From Candidatus Curtissbacteria bacterium RIFOXYA1_FULL_41_14 (GTDB lineage: Bacteria > Patescibacteriota > Microgenomatia > Curtissbacterales > GWA2-41-24): a stretch of 64,000 nt of DNA. Location: contig MFCA01000025.1 in NCBI GenBank assembly GCA_001775095.1, positions 22,994 through 86,993 of the forward strand, read 5' to 3'. Below the pieces are notes generated by a model. The model was not told the origin of the DNA. It saw nothing but the letters and a program-made list of their open reading frames with translations, and made no database searches. This document shows, in pieces, positions 1 through 60,242 of this stretch. Both the position numbers and the translations under genes were made by a program. Every line of letters starts with the position of its first letter. Position 1 is the first letter of the stretch.

Positions 1-75
1 TCGAAAGACTTGTCCAGAATCCCTACCGGGTAGATTCTGGAGTCACTCTACAATGTAGAGTTCCCCAGAATGATA
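1..75. repeat. Partial copy, cut by the window edge, of the palindromic structured element family (terminal inverted repeat tgtcattctgg/ccagaatgaca)
   Basis: Positions 1-75 match the 43683-43790 copy in module order: ggtcgaaag-cttgtccagaatcc-[variable loop]-gattctggagtc-[variable self-complementary hairpin]-ccccagaatga. The loops differ between copies but stay palindromic. Confidence 0.7.
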
Positions 76-18876: not shown

Positions 18877-18890
18877 CCCGTCTCTTTTCT

Positions 18891-18981
18891 GTCATTCCGG
18901 ACCTGATCCGGAATCTATACTTATCTGGATTCCCGCCCTTCGGTCTTGAACTCAGGGTCGAAAGACTTTCGCGGGAATGAC
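18891..18981. repeat. Copy of the palindromic structured element (gtcattccgg ... ggaatgac) in the csoR-pduO intergenic region
   Basis: Has terminal inverted repeats, an inner hairpin ttccgg-acctgat-ccggaa, and the module 'cccttcggtcttgaactcagggtcgaaag' shared with the 43683 copy. Confidence 0.65.
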
Positions 18982-19001
18982 ATCTAATATATAATTCTGA
19001 C

Positions 19002-19670
19002 GTGAAGATTTATACAAAAACCGGGGATGGTGGTACCACTTCCCTGTTTGGTGCCCGAAGAGTGGATAAAAATTCGGCAAGGATTGCAGCTTATGGAGAA
19101 GTTGATGAGTTGAATTCGTTAATCGGCGTAATACTTGCAGAATTAACTCCATATCCTGACTGTCATTCTGGGGAGCGAAGCGACTCCAGAATCGATTCTG
19201 GACAAGTCCTTCGACCTCGCTCAGGACCGTTTAAGGATCGTGAGTTTAATCGAACGGCCAGAATGACAAAGCAGAAATTAATCATCAAGAAACTTTTGAG
19301 GATTCAGTCGGAACTTTTTGTTTTAGGTGCTGACTTAGCAACACCAGCTGATGTTAAAACCAAGGTGCCAAGAATCACTAAAAGATATATAACAAGACTT
19401 GAGGAAGAAATTGATTCATGGAGTGATAAATTACCCAAACTACGTAATTTTATATTGCCTGGTGGAAATAAGGTGGGATCAAAGCTTCATCTGGCAAGGT
19501 CGGTTGTCCGGCGTGCAGAAAGAGCAATTGTTGACCTTAATAGGCAAGAAAAAATTAACCAAAATGTATTAATTTACACCAACCGCCTCTCCGATTGGTT
19601 TTTTGTCGCAGCAAGATATATTAACAAACTGGAAAATATCAGGGAAAATATTTGGAAAGGCAGGGGTTAA
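19002..19670 (+). CDS. pduO: ATP:cob(I)alamin adenosyltransferase, PduO type
   Basis: GTG start. MKIYTKTGDGGTTSLFGARRVDKNSARIAAYGEVDELNS... and ...IQSELFVLGADLATP match the PduO/MMAB family. The ORF carries an extra ~36 aa between the first two helices, described in the next feature. Confidence 0.85.
   Translation: MKIYTKTGDGGTTSLFGARRVDKNSARIAAYGEVDELNSLIGVILAELTPYPDCHSGERSDSRIDSGQVLRPRSGPFKDREFNRTARMTKQKLIIKKLLRIQSELFVLGADLATPADVKTKVPRITKRYITRLEEEIDSWSDKLPKLRNFILPGGNKVGSKLHLARSVVRRAERAIVDLNRQEKINQNVLIYTNRLSDWFFVAARYINKLENIRENIWKGRG
19161..19268. mobile_element. Palindromic element copy (reverse orientation) inserted in-frame within pduO (108 nt = 36 codons)
   Basis: tgtcattctgg...ccagaatgaca with inner ccagaatcgattctgg. 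It aligns to the 43683 copy in reverse complement. It encodes PYPDCHSGERSDSRIDSGQVLRPRSGPFKDREFNRTARMTK, with no stop codon, in a loop region of PduO. Confidence 0.7.
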
Positions 19671-21254: not shown

Positions 21255-24080
21255 CTAGCTGCATTTGCTCCAGCCGCAGGAGGGATTGATGCATTGACGG
21301 CAGCCTTCGGCAAAGACAACCGGGCTTGCGCAATCTGGGCAAACTACAAATTTATTTTCAATTATTTTTTCCTGATGAATGCTACTTACCGAACCGGTGT
21401 CGATTTGGTACTTACCCCCGACTGGGATATTCATCTGGGTACTTTTGGTGTTTCCCTTTGTTAAACCATTACCACTTCCTGTTTGACCGTTGGTATAAGC
21501 TGATTTGGCCGGGTAGTTTGTATGGCCGTTGGTTAAGGGAGTTTTTACAATGGATTCGATTGGTTCGTCTTGCCCAACTACTGGAAGGGTAAGTTGTTTG
21601 GCTTTGGCAATCTCCAATAAGGATTTACCGACGGCATCAAAGGCGGAAAGGACGCTGTCCGGTCCGATACCATAGGGCGTACCACAGGATATCCCGACTA
21701 GGTCTGTAGCAACCTCCTCCAAGCTCGCACCATATTTCAGGGCGCGGGATGCCAATCTGCCTGTAACTTCAGCGGCACCAGCCACATAACCGCCTGTTTT
21801 ACCGATAGTTACAAAAACCTCAACCGGCATACCTTCAGCATCCCGAAATACGGATGTATAAACATATCCAACATCAGCTTTCTTGCGAACTCTCATTCCC
21901 ACAGCTTCAGTTGGGGTCGACTTTTTTCTAGGAATTTGTGGTTGTGGTTCTTGGTAAATACGTTTACCGGTAAGCTGGTCATAATAAGAGTTATCTTTTT
22001 TAACCTCCAGGACTTGCTTAATTCTTGAACCGTCGCGATAAATTGTAGTCATGCGGCAACCAAGTTCGTATGTCAGCCAATAAGCTTGCCGGACATCTTC
22101 GACAGTCGCTTCATTTGGAAAATTGATTGTTTTGGAAATTCCGTTGTCAGTGTATTTCTGGAAAGCTGCTTCCATACGGATATGATCAGCAGGAGAAATA
22201 TCTTGGGCAACTACAAAAACCCTTGTCAGATCCTGAGGTATCTCACCTAAATTCTGAATTGAACCACGATTCTCTTCAATCTTGGAAAGTAATTGGTCGG
22301 AATCAATCCCCTTATTTTTCAAGGCCCCTAAAAAGTAGGAGTTAGTATTAAAAAGTCTTTTACCCTCGATGGTATTTTTGGCAAATGTCAGCGCAAAATA
22401 CGGTTCAATACCGCTGGAACAATCAGCAAGCAGGGAAATTGTGCCGGTTGGAGCGATAGTTGTTCTGGCAGCATTTCTTGGATGAATTTTACCTGGTTGG
22501 TTGTAGATAGAATCTTTGAAGGATGGAAATACCCCGCGAACCTTTGCTAGGTTCACACTGGCATTGTCTGCTTCATCTTGAATGAACTTCATGACTTTTT
22601 CTGCCAAGGAGAAAGCTTCAAAAGTGTTATAGCCAATACCAAGTTTGGCCAGCATATCTGCCCAGCCCATAACTCCAAGGCCGATTCTTCTGATTTTTGA
22701 GGTCATCTGGTCAATTTCCGCAACCGGATATTCGTTCATATCAAGAACGTTATCCAAAAAGTGAACTGCCTTGTGGATTGTTTGTTTTAACTCTTGCCAG
22801 TCGATTCTTTCTTCGACCGGTTCATCATATTGAGCGGAAGCCCTTCGACTTTGCTCAGGATCTTCGACCCTTCGACTTTGCTCAGGATCTTCGACCCTTC
22901 GACTTTGCTCAGTGTCTTCGACTTCGTCTTTAACGAACTTGGAGAGATTAACAGAGCCTAAAGTACAGGCATCATATGGGAGAAGCGGCTGTTCTGCACA
23001 GGGATTGGTAGCTTCGATTTGGCCAAGTTTTGGAGTTGGATTAGCCCGGGAATCGTTGATTCTATCAATTAAAACCACTCCCGGATCTCCGTACTGCCAG
23101 GCAAGTCTGGTTATTAAATCAAAGACTCTTTTGGCATTGAGTTTGTCAGTAACTTCACCGGTCCGAGGATTAACAAGGTTGTATCCTTCCCCTTTATGTT
23201 TAGCACGACAAGCTTCATATAACTTTCTAACTGCTTCTTCAACGCGAACATTTTTAAGATCAAGGTCGCGAATTGTGTATGCTTCTCTTATTTCTTCTAT
23301 AATCTCGTTAATTTCCAACTCGCCATCCGCACCTCGACTACGCTCGGTGTCTTCGACAAACTTGGCATCTTTTTTGACTTTTTCCATAAATTCCTCAGTT
23401 ATACTTATGGAGATATTAAAGTTAGTTAGCGAAAACTCATCGACTTTGTGAACTGCAAAACGCAAAATATCAGGGTGTGTATAGTGAAGGATTCCCATAT
23501 TAGCACCGCGGCGAACTCCACCCTGTCTTATTTGCGAAGTTACGTCGTTATAGGCTTGCAAAAAAGCAACTGGACCGGTTGATTTGCCCTTTGAGGTACC
23601 AATAATATCGTCTTTTGGACGGAGCTTGGAAAAAGAAAAGCCTGTCCCACCGCCCATTTTATGAATCATTGCCATATCCCGCATCGTTCTGAGAATTGAT
23701 TCCATATCATCCTCAATAGGTAAGACAAAACAAGCTGAAAGCGATTGGCCGGTTTTACCGGAGTTGACTAAAGTCGGAGTATTGGGAATAAATCTCTGGG
23801 AAGCCATAAGTTTGTAAAATTCTTTGGCTGTCTTTTTGTGGATATTGCCTTCGTAAATTCTGTCGGCAGCGGCAATATAGTAGGCAACACGCCAGAAAAG
23901 TTTTTTTGGAGTTTCTACCGGTTCCCCTTTCTCGTTACGGAAAGAGTAACGGGTTTGGGCAATATAGGCAGCATTTTCGGATAGAGTCGGTTCAAATAAA
24001 TCTTTCGGGACAGCCGGAATCTTTCTGCCTATTGCGCGAACATCTTCTCTTGTGAATTTCTTCTTTAACACTTTTTTCAT
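21255..24080 (-). CDS. nrdJ: Ribonucleoside-diphosphate/triphosphate reductase, class II (adenosylcobalamin-dependent)
   Basis: A 941-aa protein with the class II RNR fold signature and a C-terminal Cys-rich zinc ribbon (CPDCASP...CRQCINPSCGWSKCS). It overlaps nrdR by 4 nt. It contains in-frame repeat insertions, described in the next feature. Confidence 0.9.
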   Translation of the reverse strand: MKKVLKKKFTREDVRAIGRKIPAVPKDLFEPTLSENAAYIAQTRYSFRNEKGEPVETPKKLFWRVAYYIAAADRIYEGNIHKKTAKEFYKLMASQRFIPNTPTLVNSGKTGQSLSACFVLPIEDDMESILRTMRDMAMIHKMGGGTGFSFSKLRPKDDIIGTSKGKSTGPVAFLQAYNDVTSQIRQGGVRRGANMGILHYTHPDILRFAVHKVDEFSLTNFNISISITEEFMEKVKKDAKFVEDTERSRGADGELEINEIIEEIREAYTIRDLDLKNVRVEEAVRKLYEACRAKHKGEGYNLVNPRTGEVTDKLNAKRVFDLITRLAWQYGDPGVVLIDRINDSRANPTPKLGQIEATNPCAEQPLLPYDACTLGSVNLSKFVKDEVEDTEQSRRVEDPEQSRRVEDPEQSRRASAQYDEPVEERIDWQELKQTIHKAVHFLDNVLDMNEYPVAEIDQMTSKIRRIGLGVMGWADMLAKLGIGYNTFEAFSLAEKVMKFIQDEADNASVNLAKVRGVFPSFKDSIYNQPGKIHPRNAARTTIAPTGTISLLADCSSGIEPYFALTFAKNTIEGKRLFNTNSYFLGALKNKGIDSDQLLSKIEENRGSIQNLGEIPQDLTRVFVVAQDISPADHIRMEAAFQKYTDNGISKTINFPNEATVEDVRQAYWLTYELGCRMTTIYRDGSRIKQVLEVKKDNSYYDQLTGKRIYQEPQPQIPRKKSTPTEAVGMRVRKKADVGYVYTSVFRDAEGMPVEVFVTIGKTGGYVAGAAEVTGRLASRALKYGASLEEVATDLVGISCGTPYGIGPDSVLSAFDAVGKSLLEIAKAKQLTLPVVGQDEPIESIVKTPLTNGHTNYPAKSAYTNGQTGSGNGLTKGNTKSTQMNIPVGGKYQIDTGSVSSIHQEKIIENKFVVCPDCASPVVFAEGCRQCINPSCGWSKCS
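21256..21282. repeat. 27-bp direct repeat (right copy) equal to the authentic 3' end of the nrdJ CDS
   Basis: Pairs with 20744-20770 at 26 of 27 positions and brackets the DUF4258/DUF2283 cassette. Confidence 0.8.
22841..22921. repeat. Three tandem in-frame copies of a 27-nt unit (ccttcgactttgctcaggatcttcgac) within nrdJ
   Basis: Encodes ...VEDTEQSRRVEDPEQSRRVEDPEQSRR... A further single copy sits at about 23332-23357 (VEDTERSRG). The same unit is in gltX and in the palindromic elements. Confidence 0.85.
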
Positions 24081-28130: not shown

Positions 28131-28233
28131 TCGAATATTATAGCATCAGATAAGGCTAAAACATTTAACAGCTGAGGGTATAAGTAGCGAGGGTACAGTT
28201 ACATTGGTGCGCAGTCGTGCTGAAATGGCCGGT

Positions 28234-30150: not shown

Positions 30151-30224
30151 TGGCTGCCGGACTAGGATTCGGACCTAGATAAGCAGATCCAGAATCTGCT
30201 GTCCTACCATTAGACGATCCGGCA
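30151..30224 (-). tRNA. tRNA-Gln (anticodon CUG)
   Basis: Hand-folded on the minus strand: acceptor TGCCGGA/TCCGGCA with U1-A72, discriminator G73, CCA encoded, D-stem GTCT/GGAC, anticodon arm GCAGA-TTCTGGA-TCTGC (CTG), T-arm CTAGG-TCCGAAT-CCTAG. The T-loop has C at position 55, which is unusual. Confidence 0.7.
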
Positions 30225-31289: not shown

Positions 31290-31434
31290 ATAAACTTCCG
31301 AGGGCTAAGAGCACTCGGTATTGTTCTTTAAGTTTACATGAGCGAGCAGATGTTTCCTCGGCTCGGAAGTATGTATTCGTTCTCACATTCATCCGTGGGC
31401 TAATAGTCCATGGTCTTCTGCGAACGAATATAAA
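31290..31434. repeat. Structured repeat family 2, copy A (about 145 nt)
   Basis: About 80% identical to 38156-38295. Shared blocks are ataaacttccgagggctaa, aagtttacatgag.gagcaga, aagtatgtattcg, cattcatccg and ctgcga.cgaatataaa. The hairpin ccgtgg...ccatgg corresponds to ccgagg...cctcgg in copy B with a compensatory change. Confidence 0.7.
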
Positions 31435-32278: not shown

Positions 32279-32779
32279 AGGTTTATGATAGCAAATTGAA
32301 GCTAATTAGAGCTGGCACAGGCTAAAGTTCTGAATACTCTTTACTCCAACAATCTTTCTCAGGACCGTCCCAAATCACCCCTGGATATTTGGTAAGTTCA
32401 GCCCAATTCGCGGTTCGGAAATCATCAACTACTCCCAGCACGACTGTGCACCCATGTAACCGTACCCTCGACATTCACCCTTCAAATACCCCGATAATGA
32501 GGCTACGGTTGCAAAAGCGTCCTTGTTTTCACCTTGTTAACGATACACCCCCAACCATAGTCTTGGTTTCCAGTAAGGTTTTTAGGGTTAATAGAAATTT
32601 AATCTCGCCCGCTTAGTGAAGAATGTATGGTAGAGTCTAAGAAAGAGGTCTAAGCTACGTTAATTGAAGTACCAGACTATCTATCGATAAGTCAGAATTT
32701 TGCTCGTGAGTTATCACTTGCGTCACAAGGGGAAACTACGAGCGTACCATTTATAAAAAATCCACTTCCAGAATACCCA

Positions 32780-38155: not shown

Positions 38156-38295
38156 ATAAACTTCCGAGGGCTAAAAGCCCTCGGTATTTGCTCTTCAAGT
38201 TTACATGAGAGAGCAGAATACCCTCGGAAGTATGTATTCGCTTTCGCATTCATCCGAGGATTAATAATCCTCGGTATTCTGCGAGCGAATATAAA
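38156..38295. repeat. Structured repeat family 2, copy B (about 140 nt), immediately 5' of the 38307 gene
   Basis: See copy A. It contains five ccgagg/cctcgg hexamers in alternating orientation, able to form mutually exclusive hairpins. It ends 11 nt before the ATG at 38307. Confidence 0.7.
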
Positions 38296-43607: not shown

Positions 43608-43682
43608 TTTAGATATGCATATCGTAACATTTTTTGTTATTTAACTTCTTCTTGTATAATGAGGGGCACGTTCCGCACGTCT

Positions 43683-43790
43683 GTCATTCTGGCCCTTCGG
43701 TCTTGAGCTCAGGGTCGAAAGGCTTGTCCAGAATCCATATCTTGATTAGATTCTGGAGTCGTCGAGTCAGACTCGACTCCCCAGAATGAC
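43683..43790. repeat. Full-length copy (108 nt) of the palindromic structured element in the dxr 5' region
   Basis: gtcattctgg-[cccttcggtcttgagctcagggtcgaaaggctt]-gtccagaatcc-atatcttgatta-gattctggagtc-gtcgagtcagactcgac-tccccagaatgac. It has nested inverted repeats and a -10-like tataat about 25 nt upstream. Confidence 0.8.
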
Positions 43791-43822
43791 AAATGGGAAA
43801 TCGTGATGACAAAAAGTACAGC

Positions 43823-46155: not shown

Positions 46156-46863
46156 TTAGCGAAGGACTATTCTTTTAAAGCCTTCTGCATATTTTGCCTT
46201 GATTTTTCTACCTGAACGCCTGGCCCACAATTTAATCATTTTTTCCATTTGGCTGGGGTCTTTAATCTGACTTTTATGTTCCTTAAGGGCCTTGATTTTT
46301 AAATCGAGAGTATCAGTGATATCAACAATAAAATTCGGCTTTTCAAAAGCAGTTAATAAGATTTCTTTGACTTTATGAGGTGCAAATCCTTTTTTCGCGA
46401 GGTCTGGAAATGTTAAGCGGTCGCGGGCTAGGGGGAAAACCGCAGACAAAGTGGCTTCGGCAGCTGCGATATGATCCGGGTGATTGATATAGCCGAGATC
46501 GATCGAGTAGCGTGCAGTTGGATCCAGGGTAACTACCAAGGCCGGTCTAATCTTTCGAATAACTTTAACTATCTCTTTTTTAAGTTCGAGTGTCGGTTCA
46601 AGCTCAGTATCGTGATGATTCAAAAAATATACTTTTTTGACCCCTAAAACTTTGGCCGCATCTTCCTGTTCTTTCCTTCGGATTTTGGCAAGTTTTGCCG
46701 ATGTCATTTTAGGATCATCGGAACCCTTGTTGCCATTTGTGCAAAGGAGGTAATAAACAACTGCCCCTTCCCCAATCCATTTGGCGATTGAGCCGGAAGC
46801 TATAAAATCAATGTCGTCTTGATGGGCTCCAACAGCAAGAATTACCTCATTTCTTTTTGACAT
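46156..46863 (-). CDS. PIG-L/LmbE-family N-acetylglucosaminyl deacetylase
   Basis: The AHQDDIDF and HPDH motifs of the LmbE-like fold. The start is probably MSKRNEV at 46863 rather than 46899. Confidence 0.7.
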   Translation of the reverse strand: MSKRNEVILAVGAHQDDIDFIASGSIAKWIGEGAVVYYLLCTNGNKGSDDPKMTSAKLAKIRRKEQEDAAKVLGVKKVYFLNHHDTELEPTLELKKEIVKVIRKIRPALVVTLDPTARYSIDLGYINHPDHIAAAEATLSAVFPLARDRLTFPDLAKKGFAPHKVKEILLTAFEKPNFIVDITDTLDLKIKALKEHKSQIKDPSQMEKMIKLWARRSGRKIKAKYAEGFKRIVLR

Positions 46864-48181
46864 AATTTTTAAGTCTGGTAATCGTCTCCTCTTGACCAAG
46901 TTGTTCCATAGATTCGTAAAGAGGAGGGGTAATTATACTACCTGAGACAATATTTCTGACAGCAGAAATTAACTCTATCCTGTCGATTTTTTTAAGGACA
47001 GCTGTTTCCTCGATTAATTTCCTGATGACAGAATTATTCCAAACCTTACTTTTTTCAAAAACTGAGATTACATCAGCAATCAATGAAACAGACAGTGATA
47101 TTTTGGGAATATTTGAAATTTTCGGGCGGTTGAAAAAGAAGTCCGCCATTTTTGGGAATTCCAACAATGTTTTCATCCGTTCCCTGACAAGTGGTATTAA
47201 AGATCTGATTTTTTCAAGATCATATTGGGGAAAAAGGGTTTTAATCTGTTTGGCAAGTCTGTCGTCTTTGATCTTTTTCATCCACTCCCGATTAAACCAA
47301 TTTAATTTTTCGCCGTTGAAGATCGGGCTGTTTTTGTTAAGGCGATCAAGCGAAAATTCGCGAGTTAAATCATTTAGAGAAAATATTTCTCTATCGTCTT
47401 TGGGCGCCCAACCAAGAAGGCTCAAAAAGTTAACTAGAGCTTCGGGCAGATAACCTTCATCTATATATTCGATAACTGATTTTGCACCTTCGCGCTTTGA
47501 AAGCTTTTTACGATCAGGTCCCAGGATTGGCGGCAGATGAATAAAAGCAGGATATAGCCACGAAAAGGCCTCGTACAAAAGAAGATGTTTTGGAGTTGAT
47601 GATATCCATTCGTCCCCGCGGATGACGTGGGAGATTTGCATATCGTGATCATCAACAACAGAGGCAAAGTGATACGTCGGGAAACCGTCGGATTTTACTA
47701 TGATAAAGTCTTCGAGTACATCGGATAAAAACTTAATTTCGCCATGAACCAAATCTTGCCATTTTAGGGTTTTTCCTTTTGGAATTTTGAAGCGCCAAGA
47801 TCCTTGGTCTTCATAAACCAGCTTCTGGTCTTTTAGAATTTTCAGGTGTTTCTGGTAAAGATCCAGTCTTCTGGACTGCTCGTAATACTCATCCCATTTC
47901 AAACCAAGAACCGAGAGGCTTTCTTGAATTATTTCTCGAGAGCCTGGAACTAGTCTTTTACGATCGGTGTCCTCAAGCCTGAGTATGAAGGTGCCATCCT
48001 GATTTTTTGCATACAAAAAATCAAAAAGGGCTGTTCTTATATTGCCGATATGAGGAACTCCAGTTGGCGACGGGGCATATCGAACACGGACCCTTCGACT
48101 ACGCTCAGGGTCTTCGACCTTTCGACTACGCTCAGGGTCTTCGACCTTTCGACTACGCTGCGGGTCTTCGGTCTTTTTCAT
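46847..48181 (-). CDS. gltX: Glutamyl-tRNA synthetase with an N-terminal repeat-encoded extension
   Basis: RVRYAPSPTGVPHIGNIRTA (HIGH) and KLSKREG (KMSKS). The first 30 residues, MKKTEDPQRSRKVEDPERSRKVEDPERSRR, are encoded by the 27-nt tandem repeat. There is no alternative start downstream of the repeat. Confidence 0.85.
   Translation of the reverse strand: MKKTEDPQRSRKVEDPERSRKVEDPERSRRVRVRYAPSPTGVPHIGNIRTALFDFLYAKNQDGTFILRLEDTDRKRLVPGSREIIQESLSVLGLKWDEYYEQSRRLDLYQKHLKILKDQKLVYEDQGSWRFKIPKGKTLKWQDLVHGEIKFLSDVLEDFIIVKSDGFPTYHFASVVDDHDMQISHVIRGDEWISSTPKHLLLYEAFSWLYPAFIHLPPILGPDRKKLSKREGAKSVIEYIDEGYLPEALVNFLSLLGWAPKDDREIFSLNDLTREFSLDRLNKNSPIFNGEKLNWFNREWMKKIKDDRLAKQIKTLFPQYDLEKIRSLIPLVRERMKTLLEFPKMADFFFNRPKISNIPKISLSVSLIADVISVFEKSKVWNNSVIRKLIEETAVLKKIDRIELISAVRNIVSGSIITPPLYESMEQLGQEETITRLKNYVKKK
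48092..48172. repeat. Three tandem in-frame copies of the 27-nt unit (ccttcgactacgctcagggtcttcgac) at the 5' end of gltX
   Basis: It is the same unit as in nrdJ with 2-3 substitutions, and it encodes VEDPERSRK repeats. Confidence 0.85.
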
Positions 48182-60077: not shown

Positions 60078-60170
60078 CTTTTAGCCTAAGCTTTGCTTGG
60101 AAAACACCAGTGTCATGTTGAATAAATTTAGTACCCCTTCTTTTACCATGCAAGTTGCAGGATTGTCAAT

Positions 60171-60242
60171 CCTTCGACTTCGCTCAGGATGACTCTGAGT
60201 TAAATCGAAGAGTCAATGGGTTCGACAAGCTCACCATTGACT
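60171..60242. repeat. Repeat-derived segment: one 20-nt core unit (ccttcgacttcgctcaggat) plus the hairpin gagtcaatgg...ccattgactc
   Basis: The core is identical in pattern to the nrdJ/gltX tandem unit. The 10-bp inverted repeat is separated by 14 nt. Confidence 0.6.

What the first reader, a model, noticed from the sequence alone, without database searches (positions are those of the whole stretch)
19161..19268. Palindromic repeat element inserted in-frame inside the cobalamin adenosyltransferase gene pduO
A 108-nt copy (36 codons, no stop) of the tgtcattctgg...ccagaatgaca element lies within the pduO reading frame. It adds about 36 residues (PYPDCHSGERSDSRIDSGQVLRPRSGPFKDREFNRTARMTK) between the first and second helices. 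Homologous PduO/MMAB proteins have only a short loop there. The same element, in reverse orientation, occurs intergenically at 43683-43790. This mirrors Rickettsia palindromic elements that insert in-frame into genes and are tolerated.
Basis: partly seen in the sequence, partly recalled or inferred. Interest (0 to 1): 0.75.

Follow-up and report, generated by a model that had tools for sequence, protein, structure and literature searches.

The report
Palindromic repeat translated inside enzyme gene
A 108-base hairpin-forming repeat sits in-frame inside the vitamin-B12 adenosyltransferase gene of a groundwater Curtissbacteria (CPR) genome. It belongs to a large repeat family that often lives inside essential genes of these bacteria, a habit known until now mainly from Rickettsia.

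Summary
Window 19161-19268 is a 108-nt element with perfect 11-nt terminal inverted repeats. It occupies exactly codons 54-89 of a PduO-type ATP:cob(I)alamin adenosyltransferase gene (19002-19670). It adds a 36-residue, low-confidence loop between helices 1 and 2. The element is composite. A near-identical strain and a roughly 75%-identical relative carry only a 57-nt core. The extra 51 nt is a second small palindrome nested in that core. A syntenic relative with 82% identity has an empty loop.

A metagenome scan found at least 107 loci with this family. Of 97 unique copies, 38 lie in-frame inside conserved genes such as GatB, LeuRS, UvrA, RecG and TsaD. None of the genic copies has a length of 2 mod 3.

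In about half of Microgenomates PduO orthologues the same loop holds some insert. At least three DNA-confirmed palindromic families are involved.

The inserted DNA is far more conserved than the flanking coding sequence. It almost lacks synonymous changes and shows compensatory stem changes. It is therefore not a decaying passenger.

No transposase and no target-site duplication were found. The element is Rickettsia-palindromic-element-like, a new member of a known kind. I found no report of such elements in CPR.

The parts
19002..19670 (+). Host gene: PduO-type ATP:cob(I)alamin adenosyltransferase, 222 aa, GTG start
   Evidence: ORF. Pfam PF01923 at 2e-57. PDB PduO homologues at 1e-42. AF2 model matches 3ci1/2nt8 with target-normalised TM-score 0.83-0.86. 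NCBI names it as Candidatus Curtissbacteria.
19161..19268 (+). Composite palindromic element, 108 nt, equal to codons 54-89 of the host gene
   Evidence: (RNA fold z = -4.9).
19161..19171 (+). Left terminal inverted repeat TGTCATTCTGG
   Evidence: present by construction in the 97 copies retrieved with this pattern.
19172..19187 (+). Hairpin module 1, GGAGCGAAGCGACTCC. This is the commonest form in the family. Other copies carry different 7-bp-stem hairpins at this position.
19186..19201 (+). Hairpin 2, CCAGAATC/GATTCTGG with a zero-length loop here; the loop is 0-22 nt in other copies
19207..19257 (+). Nested 51-nt palindromic module (TCCTTCGACC...TCGAACGG), encoding VLRPRSGPFKDREFNRT. It is absent from strain L005 and relative L006.
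   Evidence: The identical module is in two other element copies in L162. A standalone relative lies at 60168-60214.
19258..19268 (+). Right terminal inverted repeat CCAGAATGACA
19146..19160 (+). 15 nt (ACTCCATATCCTGAC, TPYPD) directly left of the element. L006 lacks it. Its origin is unknown; it may be a remnant of an older element.
   Evidence: the remnant idea is inference only.
18890..18982 (+). Degenerate family copy in the csoR-like/pduO divergent intergenic region (TGTCATTCCGG...GGGAATGACA)
   Evidence: Present in L005 and L008, absent from L006.
43682..43791 (-). Intact 110-nt family copy in opposite orientation, intergenic between a transporter-like gene and dxr
   Evidence: (z = -5.2 and -6.0).
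1..75 (-). Family copy cut by the window start
60168..60214 (+). Standalone intergenic copy of the small palindrome family to which the nested 51-nt module belongs
   Evidence: (D3).
22839..22922 (-). Three in-frame 27-nt units (VEDxEQSRR) in the ribonucleotide reductase gene. The unit resembles the left half of the 51-nt module. Copy number differs between strains.
48089..48172 (-). Three in-frame 27-nt units of the same kind directly after the start codon of gltX

Best explanation
The feature is a non-autonomous, MITE-like palindromic repeat lying in-frame in the codons for the helix 1-helix 2 connector of a PduO-type adenosyltransferase.

Shown:
- The family has conserved 11-nt inverted termini (TGTCATTCTGG / CCAGAATGACR) and a modular interior: hairpin 1, the CCAGAATC-loop-GATTCTGG hairpin, ACAAG, and an optional third hairpin.
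- The core is 57-58 nt.
- Many copies exist, in intergenic DNA and inside genes.
- The pduO copy is the 57-nt core plus a 51-nt second palindrome, placed exactly at the ACAAG|CCAGAATGACA junction where other copies carry other hairpins.
- A near-identical strain has the core only.
- A syntenic relative has no insert.

Inferred:
- The core entered the loop in an ancestor of this Curtissbacteria lineage.
- The 51-nt module was added later, by nested insertion or by conversion from a long copy.
- The element is transcribed and translated with the gene. The result is a hydrophilic, disordered 36-residue surface loop that leaves the five-helix bundle intact.
- Only in-frame, stop-free copies in permissive loops survive selection.

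The element does not then decay like neutral DNA. Its nucleotide sequence and hairpins are held nearly constant while the surrounding gene diverges. This points to selection on a DNA or RNA hairpin, or to correction against other family copies. How the family moves is unknown; neither a transposase nor a target duplication was seen.
For: - Repeat family and termini.
- In-frame position and split domain match.
- Short allele, core-only relative and empty syntenic site: using loci.
- The same 51-nt module in other copies, and a standalone relative.
- Disordered loop with the fold kept.
- Host gene under purifying selection. Against L006, 44 flank codons changed synonymously and 40 non-synonymously, out of 182.
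- Family-wide in-frame residence. 38 of 97 unique copies are spanned by long ORFs. Pfam domains run across the insert in GatB, Iso_dh, the P-type ATPase, the LeuRS editing domain, TsaD, UvrD_C, RecG and RVT_1.
- Frame constraint. Genic copies have length 0 mod 3 (9) or 1 mod 3 (29), never 2 mod 3. Other copies split 17/30/12 (Fisher p=0.003). No out-of-frame genic copy was found.
- Nucleotide-level maintenance. Insert versus flank identity is 96 vs 78%, 90 vs 74% and 87 vs 74% in three orthologous pairs. Synonymous-only changed codons are 1/62 in inserts against 165/553 in flanks (p=4e-8). Two compensatory stem changes occur in L092 vs L202.
Against: - No autonomous parent element and no recurrent transposase-like ORF in 695 kb of element-bearing loci.
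- No target-site duplication.
- No near-identical strain with a clean empty site for the 57-nt core, so the insertion event itself is inferred from more distant relatives.
- Most genic copies have length 1 mod 3, which a simple insertion without duplication does not explain.
- Translation of the insert is inferred from frame statistics, not observed.
- The strong conservation does not fit a purely selfish, neutral passenger.
Confidence: 0.8

Rival explanations
1. The hairpin element has a function and is kept by selection, as DNA or RNA. Possible roles are an mRNA stability or translation-pausing hairpin, a recombination or replication signal, or a binding site. The in-frame peptide would then be a by-product. 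This rival does not exclude a mobile origin.
For: The inserts are 87-96% identical in nucleotides where the flanking CDS is 74-78% identical. Synonymous-only changes are nearly absent (1/62 vs 165/553 codons). Stem changes are compensatory even though they alter the peptide. Hairpin modules of unrelated sequence occupy the same positions in different copies. The inserted peptides are as conserved as the enzyme core, or more so, in several clades.
Against: Copies sit in many unrelated genes and in intergenic DNA in both orientations. Many orthologues, including a syntenic relative with 82% identity, do without any insert. No Rfam family matches. Module and copy number vary between strains. No partner protein has been identified.
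Confidence: 0.3
2. The insert is young in each lineage. The same family re-inserted, or was copied in by recombination, at the same loop independently after the lineages split. This would be site-preferring or 'homing-like' behaviour, or targeting of a resident hairpin. It would explain why the insert is so much less diverged than the gene.
For: The window and L006 share the right junction but differ by 15 nt at the left junction. Different Microgenomates clades carry different palindromic families in this one loop. Identity drops sharply at the element ends. An identical 57-nt core exists at an unrelated locus, L114. Modules are found nested exactly at hairpin junctions.
Against: Each insert family is confined to a clade of PduO sequences, as vertical descent predicts. 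Insertion points differ by up to 5 codons between families, which fits a permissive-loop filter better than a precise target. No enzyme that could give site preference was found.
Confidence: 0.15
3. The segment is removed before the protein is made, by an intron-like or other RNA processing step, or it marks a pseudogene.
For: The termini can pair and bring the two gene halves together. CPR genomes are known for introns in rRNA and tRNA genes (title of bioRxiv 10.1101/2025.07.03.662931, listed).
Against: All genic copies are stop-free and none has length 2 mod 3, whereas 12 of 59 other copies do. Removal before translation would impose no such constraint. No out-of-frame genic copy was seen. 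The host gene shows purifying selection and an intact fold. At 36 residues the segment is far too small for an intein, and it matches no Rfam intron family.
Confidence: 0.03
4. The segment is a native, lineage-specific loop expansion or an assembly artefact, not a repeat element.
For: Relatives with about 75% identity carry 19 of the 36 residues at the same place.
Against: The same DNA, with the same termini, occurs elsewhere in the window and in at least 107 metagenome loci in unrelated contexts. The exact protein is found in 69 assembly blocks from several projects. Basal orthologues and solved structures have a 16-aa or 6-residue connector.
Confidence: 0.02

Closest known systems
Rickettsia palindromic elements (RPE; Ogata et al. 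2000 Science 290:347; 2002 Genome Res 12:808, as summarised in PMC10969869 and PMC6649704)
   Same: A short palindromic repeat family with many copies and no coding capacity of its own. A large share of copies is inserted in-frame in unrelated housekeeping genes. The inserts add hydrophilic peptides at positions compatible with the fold. The host is a small-genome bacterium.
   Different: The host phylum is unrelated (CPR/Microgenomates). The core is much shorter, 57-58 nt against roughly 100-150 bp. The interior is built from exchangeable hairpin modules, with nesting. Several distinct families use the same protein loop. RPEs are reported to lose repeat identity with time (PMC6649704, discussion), whereas these inserts are held nearly constant. 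Sequence similarity to RPEs was not tested.
Bacterial MITEs found inside genes: Coxiella QMITE1/2 (PMC5896051), intragenic ERIC and other enterobacterial small mobile sequences (Delihas 2007, cited in PMC10969869)
   Same: Terminal inverted repeats, non-autonomous, multicopy, with occasional in-frame fusions to host ORFs.
   Different: Those elements are mostly intergenic, or extend gene ends or hypothetical ORFs. Here about 39% of the sampled copies sit in the middle of conserved enzyme domains. No target-site duplication and no parent IS were found here.
REP/BIME elements mobilised by RAYT (Y1) transposases, and IS200/IS605-type hairpin-dependent transposition (established knowledge)
   Same: Small imperfect palindromes that cluster and nest. 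No target-site duplication. Hairpin structure matters more than sequence. Hairpin 1 contains GCGAAGC, known from the work of Hirao and colleagues as an unusually stable single-stranded DNA mini-hairpin (my own knowledge, not tested here).
   Different: REPs are extragenic by definition. No RAYT or TnpA gene was seen near any copy, though whole genomes were not searched.
Coding palindromes in Nematomorpha mitochondrial genes (PMC6649704)
   Same: Inverted repeats inside protein-coding sequence that are translated and appear to be actively maintained as hairpins.
   Different: Those are perfect repeats formed from conserved native coding sequence in mitochondria. They are not a dispersed multicopy family with common termini.

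Membership tests
MITE (miniature inverted-repeat transposable element) | Short (under about 500 bp), with no transposase ORF | tested here: met
   Copies are 56-121 nt.
MITE (miniature inverted-repeat transposable element) | Terminal inverted repeats | tested here: met
   11-nt perfect termini at 19161-19171 and 19258-19268, and in the other copies.
MITE (miniature inverted-repeat transposable element) | Multiple dispersed copies, with presence/absence differences between related genomes | tested here: met
   4 copies in the window and at least 107 metagenome loci. Empty loop in L008, core only in L005/L006, and the upstream copy absent from L006.
MITE (miniature inverted-repeat transposable element) | Target-site duplication flanking the copies | tested here: not met
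   Flanks of 71 unique copies show no shared duplication, apart from one possible case in L123.
MITE (miniature inverted-repeat transposable element) | A related autonomous IS with the same termini that supplies the transposase | tested here: inconclusive
   No terminus pair encloses a transposase. No recurrent transposase-like ORF in 695 kb of loci. Complete genomes were not searched.
Rickettsia palindromic elements (RPE) | Palindromic repeat inserted in-frame in many unrelated genes, at fold-compatible sites | tested here: met
   38 of 97 copies are genic and in-frame. Pfam domains run across the inserts. The pduO insert is a low-confidence loop.
Rickettsia palindromic elements (RPE) | Sequence relatedness to the RPE-1 to RPE-10 consensus; host genus Rickettsia | not tested
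   No RPE consensus was compared, and the session offered no curated RPE library. The host here is Candidatus Curtissbacteria, so at most this is an analogue.
REP/BIME with RAYT | Extragenic location | tested here: not met
   39% of copies lie inside genes.
REP/BIME with RAYT | An associated RAYT (Y1 transposase) gene flanked by the repeats | tested here: inconclusive
   None was seen in the fetched loci. The window's proteins were not all scanned.
PduO-type ATP:cob(I)alamin adenosyltransferase (host gene) | PF01923 domain, five-helix bundle, N-terminal KIYTKxGDxGxT ATP motif | tested here: met
   The motif is MKIYTKTGDGGTT.
PduO-type ATP:cob(I)alamin adenosyltransferase (host gene) | Membership of a pdu (propanediol utilisation) operon, as the name pduO suggests | tested here: not met
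   The neighbours are a csoR-like repressor, UDG, a B12-type ribonucleotide reductase and nrdR. No pdu genes are present.

The most novel reading that the evidence does not exclude
CPR/Microgenomates genomes may carry a diverse superfamily of hairpin-modular elements. Its members have GTCAT...ATGAC termini and a GCGAAGC-type mini-hairpin, with no transposase and no target duplication. They routinely reside inside essential genes and repeatedly occupy the same surface loops. Unlike Rickettsia elements, they are actively maintained as nucleic-acid hairpins within coding sequence. That would mean one of three things. They could be a new hairpin-based mobility or copy-correction mechanism. They could be functional DNA or RNA signals embedded in genes. 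They could also act as a regular source of strain-variable protein loops.
Probability: 0.25. Interest if true: 0.8.

Novelty: new member of a known kind. Interest (0 to 1): 0.62.

Why it matters
In-frame 'selfish' palindromes have been treated as a peculiarity of Rickettsia, with scattered cases elsewhere. Here the same habit appears in an unrelated and very large radiation of small-genome bacteria, and at high frequency. About 39% of sampled copies lie inside conserved genes. About half of the PduO orthologues surveyed have an occupied loop. In this 64-kb window alone, three proteins carry in-frame repeats: PduO, the ribonucleotide reductase and GltX.

Practical consequences:
- The repeats split domain matches.
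- They shift or truncate gene calls. Public versions of this protein cluster are 85, 135 and 159 aa long.
- They create strain-level length variants.
- They inflate the apparent count of 'novel' loops in CPR proteins.

Biological consequences:
- The inserts offer a natural experiment on which enzyme loops tolerate 20-80 extra residues.
- The frozen synonymous sites and compensatory stem changes raise a testable question. What keeps a hairpin intact inside a coding sequence?

Tried and rejected
It returned almost only distant phyla, and only L010 was useful. Orthologue DNA was therefore fetched one protein at a time.
- Search for an autonomous parent: terminus pairs 0.3-3.5 kb apart were all adjacent small copies. 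L097 proved to be a large inverted duplication or hairpin contig without a transposase.
- Clustering all ORFs of at least 150 aa from 107 element-bearing loci gave only housekeeping families, no transposase.
- Target-site duplication and flank logos showed nothing. The only signals were that G is rare just before the left terminus and that purines follow the right one.
- Three candidates for genes split out-of-frame by an element were all ordinary intergenic copies.
- Rfam gave no family, at either gathering or E<=1 threshold.
- Viral contigs held no copy.
- Literature searches for the element's nucleotide or peptide strings, and for MITEs in CPR, found nothing relevant.
- An apparent same-locus pair (L102/L138) turned out to share only about 145 nt of a larger composite repeat.

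Full report
**1. The observation**

Window 19161-19268 reads TGTCATTCTGG ... CCAGAATGACA, so the 11-nt ends are perfect inverted repeats. The terminus, with at most one mismatch, occurs 8 times in the window against 1.05 expected; no shuffle reaches 8.

The ORF 19002-19670 (+, GTG start, 222 aa) reads straight through. The element starts at the first base of codon 54 and ends at the last base of codon 89. It encodes CHSGERSDSRIDSGQVLRPRSGPFKDREFNRTARMT.

The protein is a PduO-type ATP:cob(I)alamin adenosyltransferase:
- Pfam PF01923 matches at E=2e-57, in two stretches.
- L. reuteri PduO (3ci1) aligns to residues 1-46 and 92-217, with only six residues in between in the crystal protein.

Other family copies lie at 43682-43791 (intact, opposite orientation, intergenic before dxr), at 18890-18982 (degenerate, between the csoR-like gene and pduO) and at 1-75 (cut by the window edge). 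The 43682 copy shares the termini, the CCAGAATC/GATTCTGG hairpin and ACAAG, but has different internal hairpins. It is a family member, not an identical sequence.

The single strand folds well: z = -4.9 for the pduO copy, and -5.2 and -6.0 for the two strands of the 43682 copy.

**2. Source, and whether it is an artefact**

The exact 222-aa protein is on record in 69 blocks of independent assemblies (ENA, JGI, NCBI), on contigs up to several hundred kb. NCBI names it as ATP:cob(I)alamin adenosyltransferase of Candidatus Curtissbacteria (Microgenomates, CPR). It is not an assembly artefact.

The gene sits in conserved synteny in all related loci: csoR-like repressor | pduO | uracil-DNA glycosylase ... 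B12-type ribonucleotide reductase | nrdR. There is no pdu operon. The likely role, by inference, is to supply adenosylcobalamin to the reductase.

**3. Anatomy and history at this locus**

An alignment of the 5' half of the gene from four loci shows three things.
- L005, whose aligned 5' half differs from the window by a single substitution, has a 57-nt element: TGTCATTCTGGGGAGCGAAGCGACTCCAGAATCGATTCTGGACAAGCCAGAATGACA. The window has 51 extra nt (19207-19257) exactly between ACAAG and CCAGAATGACA.
- L006/L007, syntenic and about 75% identical in protein, has the same 57-nt core. It lacks the 15 nt ACTCCATATCCTGAC to the left of it.
- L008/L009, syntenic and 82% identical outside the loop, has no insert (ILADFEGVRPLKKKL).

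The 108 nt is therefore composite. The 51-nt piece is itself a small palindrome:
- It occurs, 100% identical, inside two other family copies upstream of serS in L162.
- A related copy stands alone in intergenic DNA at window 60168-60214.
- Its left half resembles the 27-nt unit that forms in-frame arrays in the reductase and gltX genes.

The long allele could have arisen by nested insertion or by conversion from a long copy. These data cannot separate the two.

**4. Effect on the protein**

An AlphaFold2 model built from 38 orthologues has mean pLDDT 77 and pTM 0.70. It keeps the helical bundle, with helices at 26-48, 78-113, 127-143, 157-182 and 187-210. Residues 51-84 have pLDDT below 50. 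The model matches solved PduO-type enzymes with a target-normalised TM-score of 0.83-0.93.

Outside the insert, the comparison with L006 shows 44 codons with synonymous-only changes and 40 with non-synonymous changes, out of 182. The host gene is under purifying selection.

**5. The family at large**

These gave 97 unique complete copies of 56-121 nt. The modal length is 57-58 nt, and 75 of 96 distinct sequences lack the third hairpin.

The variable positions hold hairpins of unrelated sequence. At hairpin 1, for example, GTCCCGC-AAT-GCGGGAC, GTCCGTC-AGA-GACGGAC and ATCGAGT-CTG-ACTCGAT all occur. Structure is conserved, sequence is not.

Location of the copies:
- 38 of the 97 (39%) are spanned by long open frames.
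- For ten that were tested, Pfam domains run across the insert or flank it on both sides. The hosts are a P-type ATPase, GatB, isopropylmalate/isocitrate dehydrogenase, YchF, TsaD, the LeuRS editing domain, RecG, UvrD and a reverse transcriptase. UvrA was identified by alignment.
- Genic copies have lengths of 0 mod 3 (9) or 1 mod 3 (29), never 2 mod 3. The other copies split 17/30/12 (p=0.003).
- The three candidates for out-of-frame 'split genes' were ordinary intergenic copies.

This is the pattern expected if genic copies are translated and frame-breaking ones are removed by selection.

The sample has two biases.

**6. The same loop in orthologues**

Among the 113 parsable sequences of the top 120 homologues:
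- 42 have the basal 16-17-residue connector.
- 16 have 18-28 residues.
- 55 have 32-79 residues.

At the DNA level, the inserts in syntenic loci are different palindromic elements:
- GTCATCCTGA...TCAGAATGAC in L090.
- TGTCATTGCGAGG...CGCGATGACA in L092 and L010.
- A compound of two or three elements in L093.
- A less clearly palindromic one in L091.

Each type is confined to a clade. Insertion points differ by up to five codons. This loop is therefore either a strongly permissive site hit repeatedly, or a site where resident hairpins attract or are replaced by others. This is unresolved.

**7. The inserts do not evolve like coding sequence or like junk**

Three orthologous pairs were retrieved by protein homology, which avoids the pattern bias. 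The table gives nucleotide identity.

| Pair | Insert identity | Flanking CDS identity | P |
|---|---|---|---|
| window / L006 | 96.3% | 78.4% | 2e-4 |
| L090 / L201 | 89.5% | 73.5% | 0.003 |
| L092 / L202 | 86.7% | 73.5% | 0.005 |

Codons with synonymous-only changes number 1 of 62 in the inserts and 165 of 553 in the flanks (Fisher p=4e-8).

In L092 versus L202 an internal stem changes from GTCGAG/CTCGAA to GCCAAG/CTTGGC. That is two compensatory pair changes and one gained pair, although the peptide changes from TSSHTRSAMT to TPSLTWLAMT. Identity drops right at the element ends.

A neutral passenger inherited vertically is therefore excluded for these inserts. The remaining options are selection on a nucleic-acid hairpin, correction against other copies, or recent same-site re-insertion. 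This differs from Rickettsia elements, which are reported to lose repeat identity with time (PMC6649704).

**8. Mobility mechanism**

Nothing was found:
- no target-site duplication;
- no parent IS;
- no recurrent transposase;
- no copies in viral contigs.

The lack of duplication, the nesting and the reliance on hairpins recall REP/RAYT and IS200/IS605 biology. The GCGAAGC core of hairpin 1 is a known stable single-stranded DNA mini-hairpin. Both points are my own knowledge and serve as leads, not tests.

**9. Comparison with what is known**

The phenomenon matches Rickettsia palindromic elements and, more loosely, intragenic MITEs of Coxiella and enterobacteria (PMC10969869, PMC5896051).

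As a MITE, it meets four criteria: size, terminal repeats, multicopy, and presence/absence differences. It fails the duplication criterion, and the parent-IS criterion is undecided.

Full-text searches found no paper linking MITEs or in-frame palindromes to CPR, and no paper containing the element's sequence strings. No Rfam family matches.

I file the finding as a new member of a known kind. The family-level properties (modular hairpins, maintenance inside coding sequence, recurrent use of one loop) are the part that could be more than that.

**10. Verdict**

Interest is 0.62. It is not a new principle. It is a clear, well-supported second major instance of protein-coding palindromic repeats, in a phylum where I found no report of it, with an unexplained conservation signal that can be tested directly.

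Noticed in passing
window 22839-22922 and about 23334-23357 (gene 21255-24080, minus strand): The B12-type ribonucleotide reductase carries three in-frame 27-nt units (VEDTEQSRR, VEDPEQSRR, VEDPEQSRR) and one more unit (VEDTERSRG) further upstream in the protein. Strains L003, L001 and the window have 1, 2 and 3 units. The syntenic relative L090 has none at either site.
   Followed up: partly
window 48089-48172 (gltX 46847-48181, minus strand): Three copies of the same 27-nt unit lie directly after the start codon of glutamyl-tRNA synthetase (MKKTEDPQRSRKVEDPERSRKVEDPERSRR...), ahead of the catalytic core.
   Followed up: partly
window 60168-60214: A standalone intergenic copy of the small palindrome family that is nested as the 51-nt module in the pduO element.
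   Followed up: partly
window 31290-31434 and 38156-38295: An unrelated repeat of about 145 nt, 84% identical between its two copies, with CCGAGGGCT..AGCCCTCGG hairpins. One copy lies between convergent genes and the other between divergent genes. No Rfam match at gathering threshold.
   Followed up: partly
window 28188-28222 and 32436-32470: A 35-nt inverted repeat, 91% complementary, whose arms are 4.2 kb apart and enclose a tRNA gene (30154-30224). It could bound a mobile or invertible segment.
   Followed up: no
window 19146-19160: 15 nt (ACTCCATATCCTGAC, TPYPD) abut the left end of the element and are absent from L006. They loosely resemble the terminus of the GTCATCCTGA family found in this loop in L090-type relatives.
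   Followed up: partly
L133 (LeuRS), L126 (TsaD), L110 (NusG), L092 7632-7700 (copper ATPase), L092 reductase: Single proteins carry two different palindromic elements in-frame. Examples: VILGSKATPESDSGQARMT plus VIARSETTKQSH... in LeuRS, and a tandem pair at the NusG N-terminus. Other genes near pduO in relatives also carry inserts.
   Followed up: partly
L128 and L131 (UvrA): Each UvrA has a full element at a site where the other has a short sequence that looks like a collapsed remnant (SDKAQVTS against SDSGQARMI). This suggests in-frame shrinkage of old inserts.
   Followed up: partly
protein cluster of the window PduO (P0122, P0123, P0129; P0008, P0016): Public gene calls for this protein include 159-aa, 135-aa and 85-aa versions. 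Some relatives have N-terminal extensions that read into the upstream repeat copy. The repeats disturb automatic gene calling.
   Followed up: no
L154 (C687J35021_10077001) 700-807: This locus has the same 108-nt element and the same left flank as pduO, but a different right flank that runs into another repeat. It is either an assembly chimera at the repeat or a rearrangement mediated by it.
   Followed up: no
L106 and L142: Two diverged reverse-transcriptase genes (RVT_1, 61% identical) carry the element at the same site, with the right half read in different frames (GFWTSQND against DSGQARMT).
   Followed up: partly
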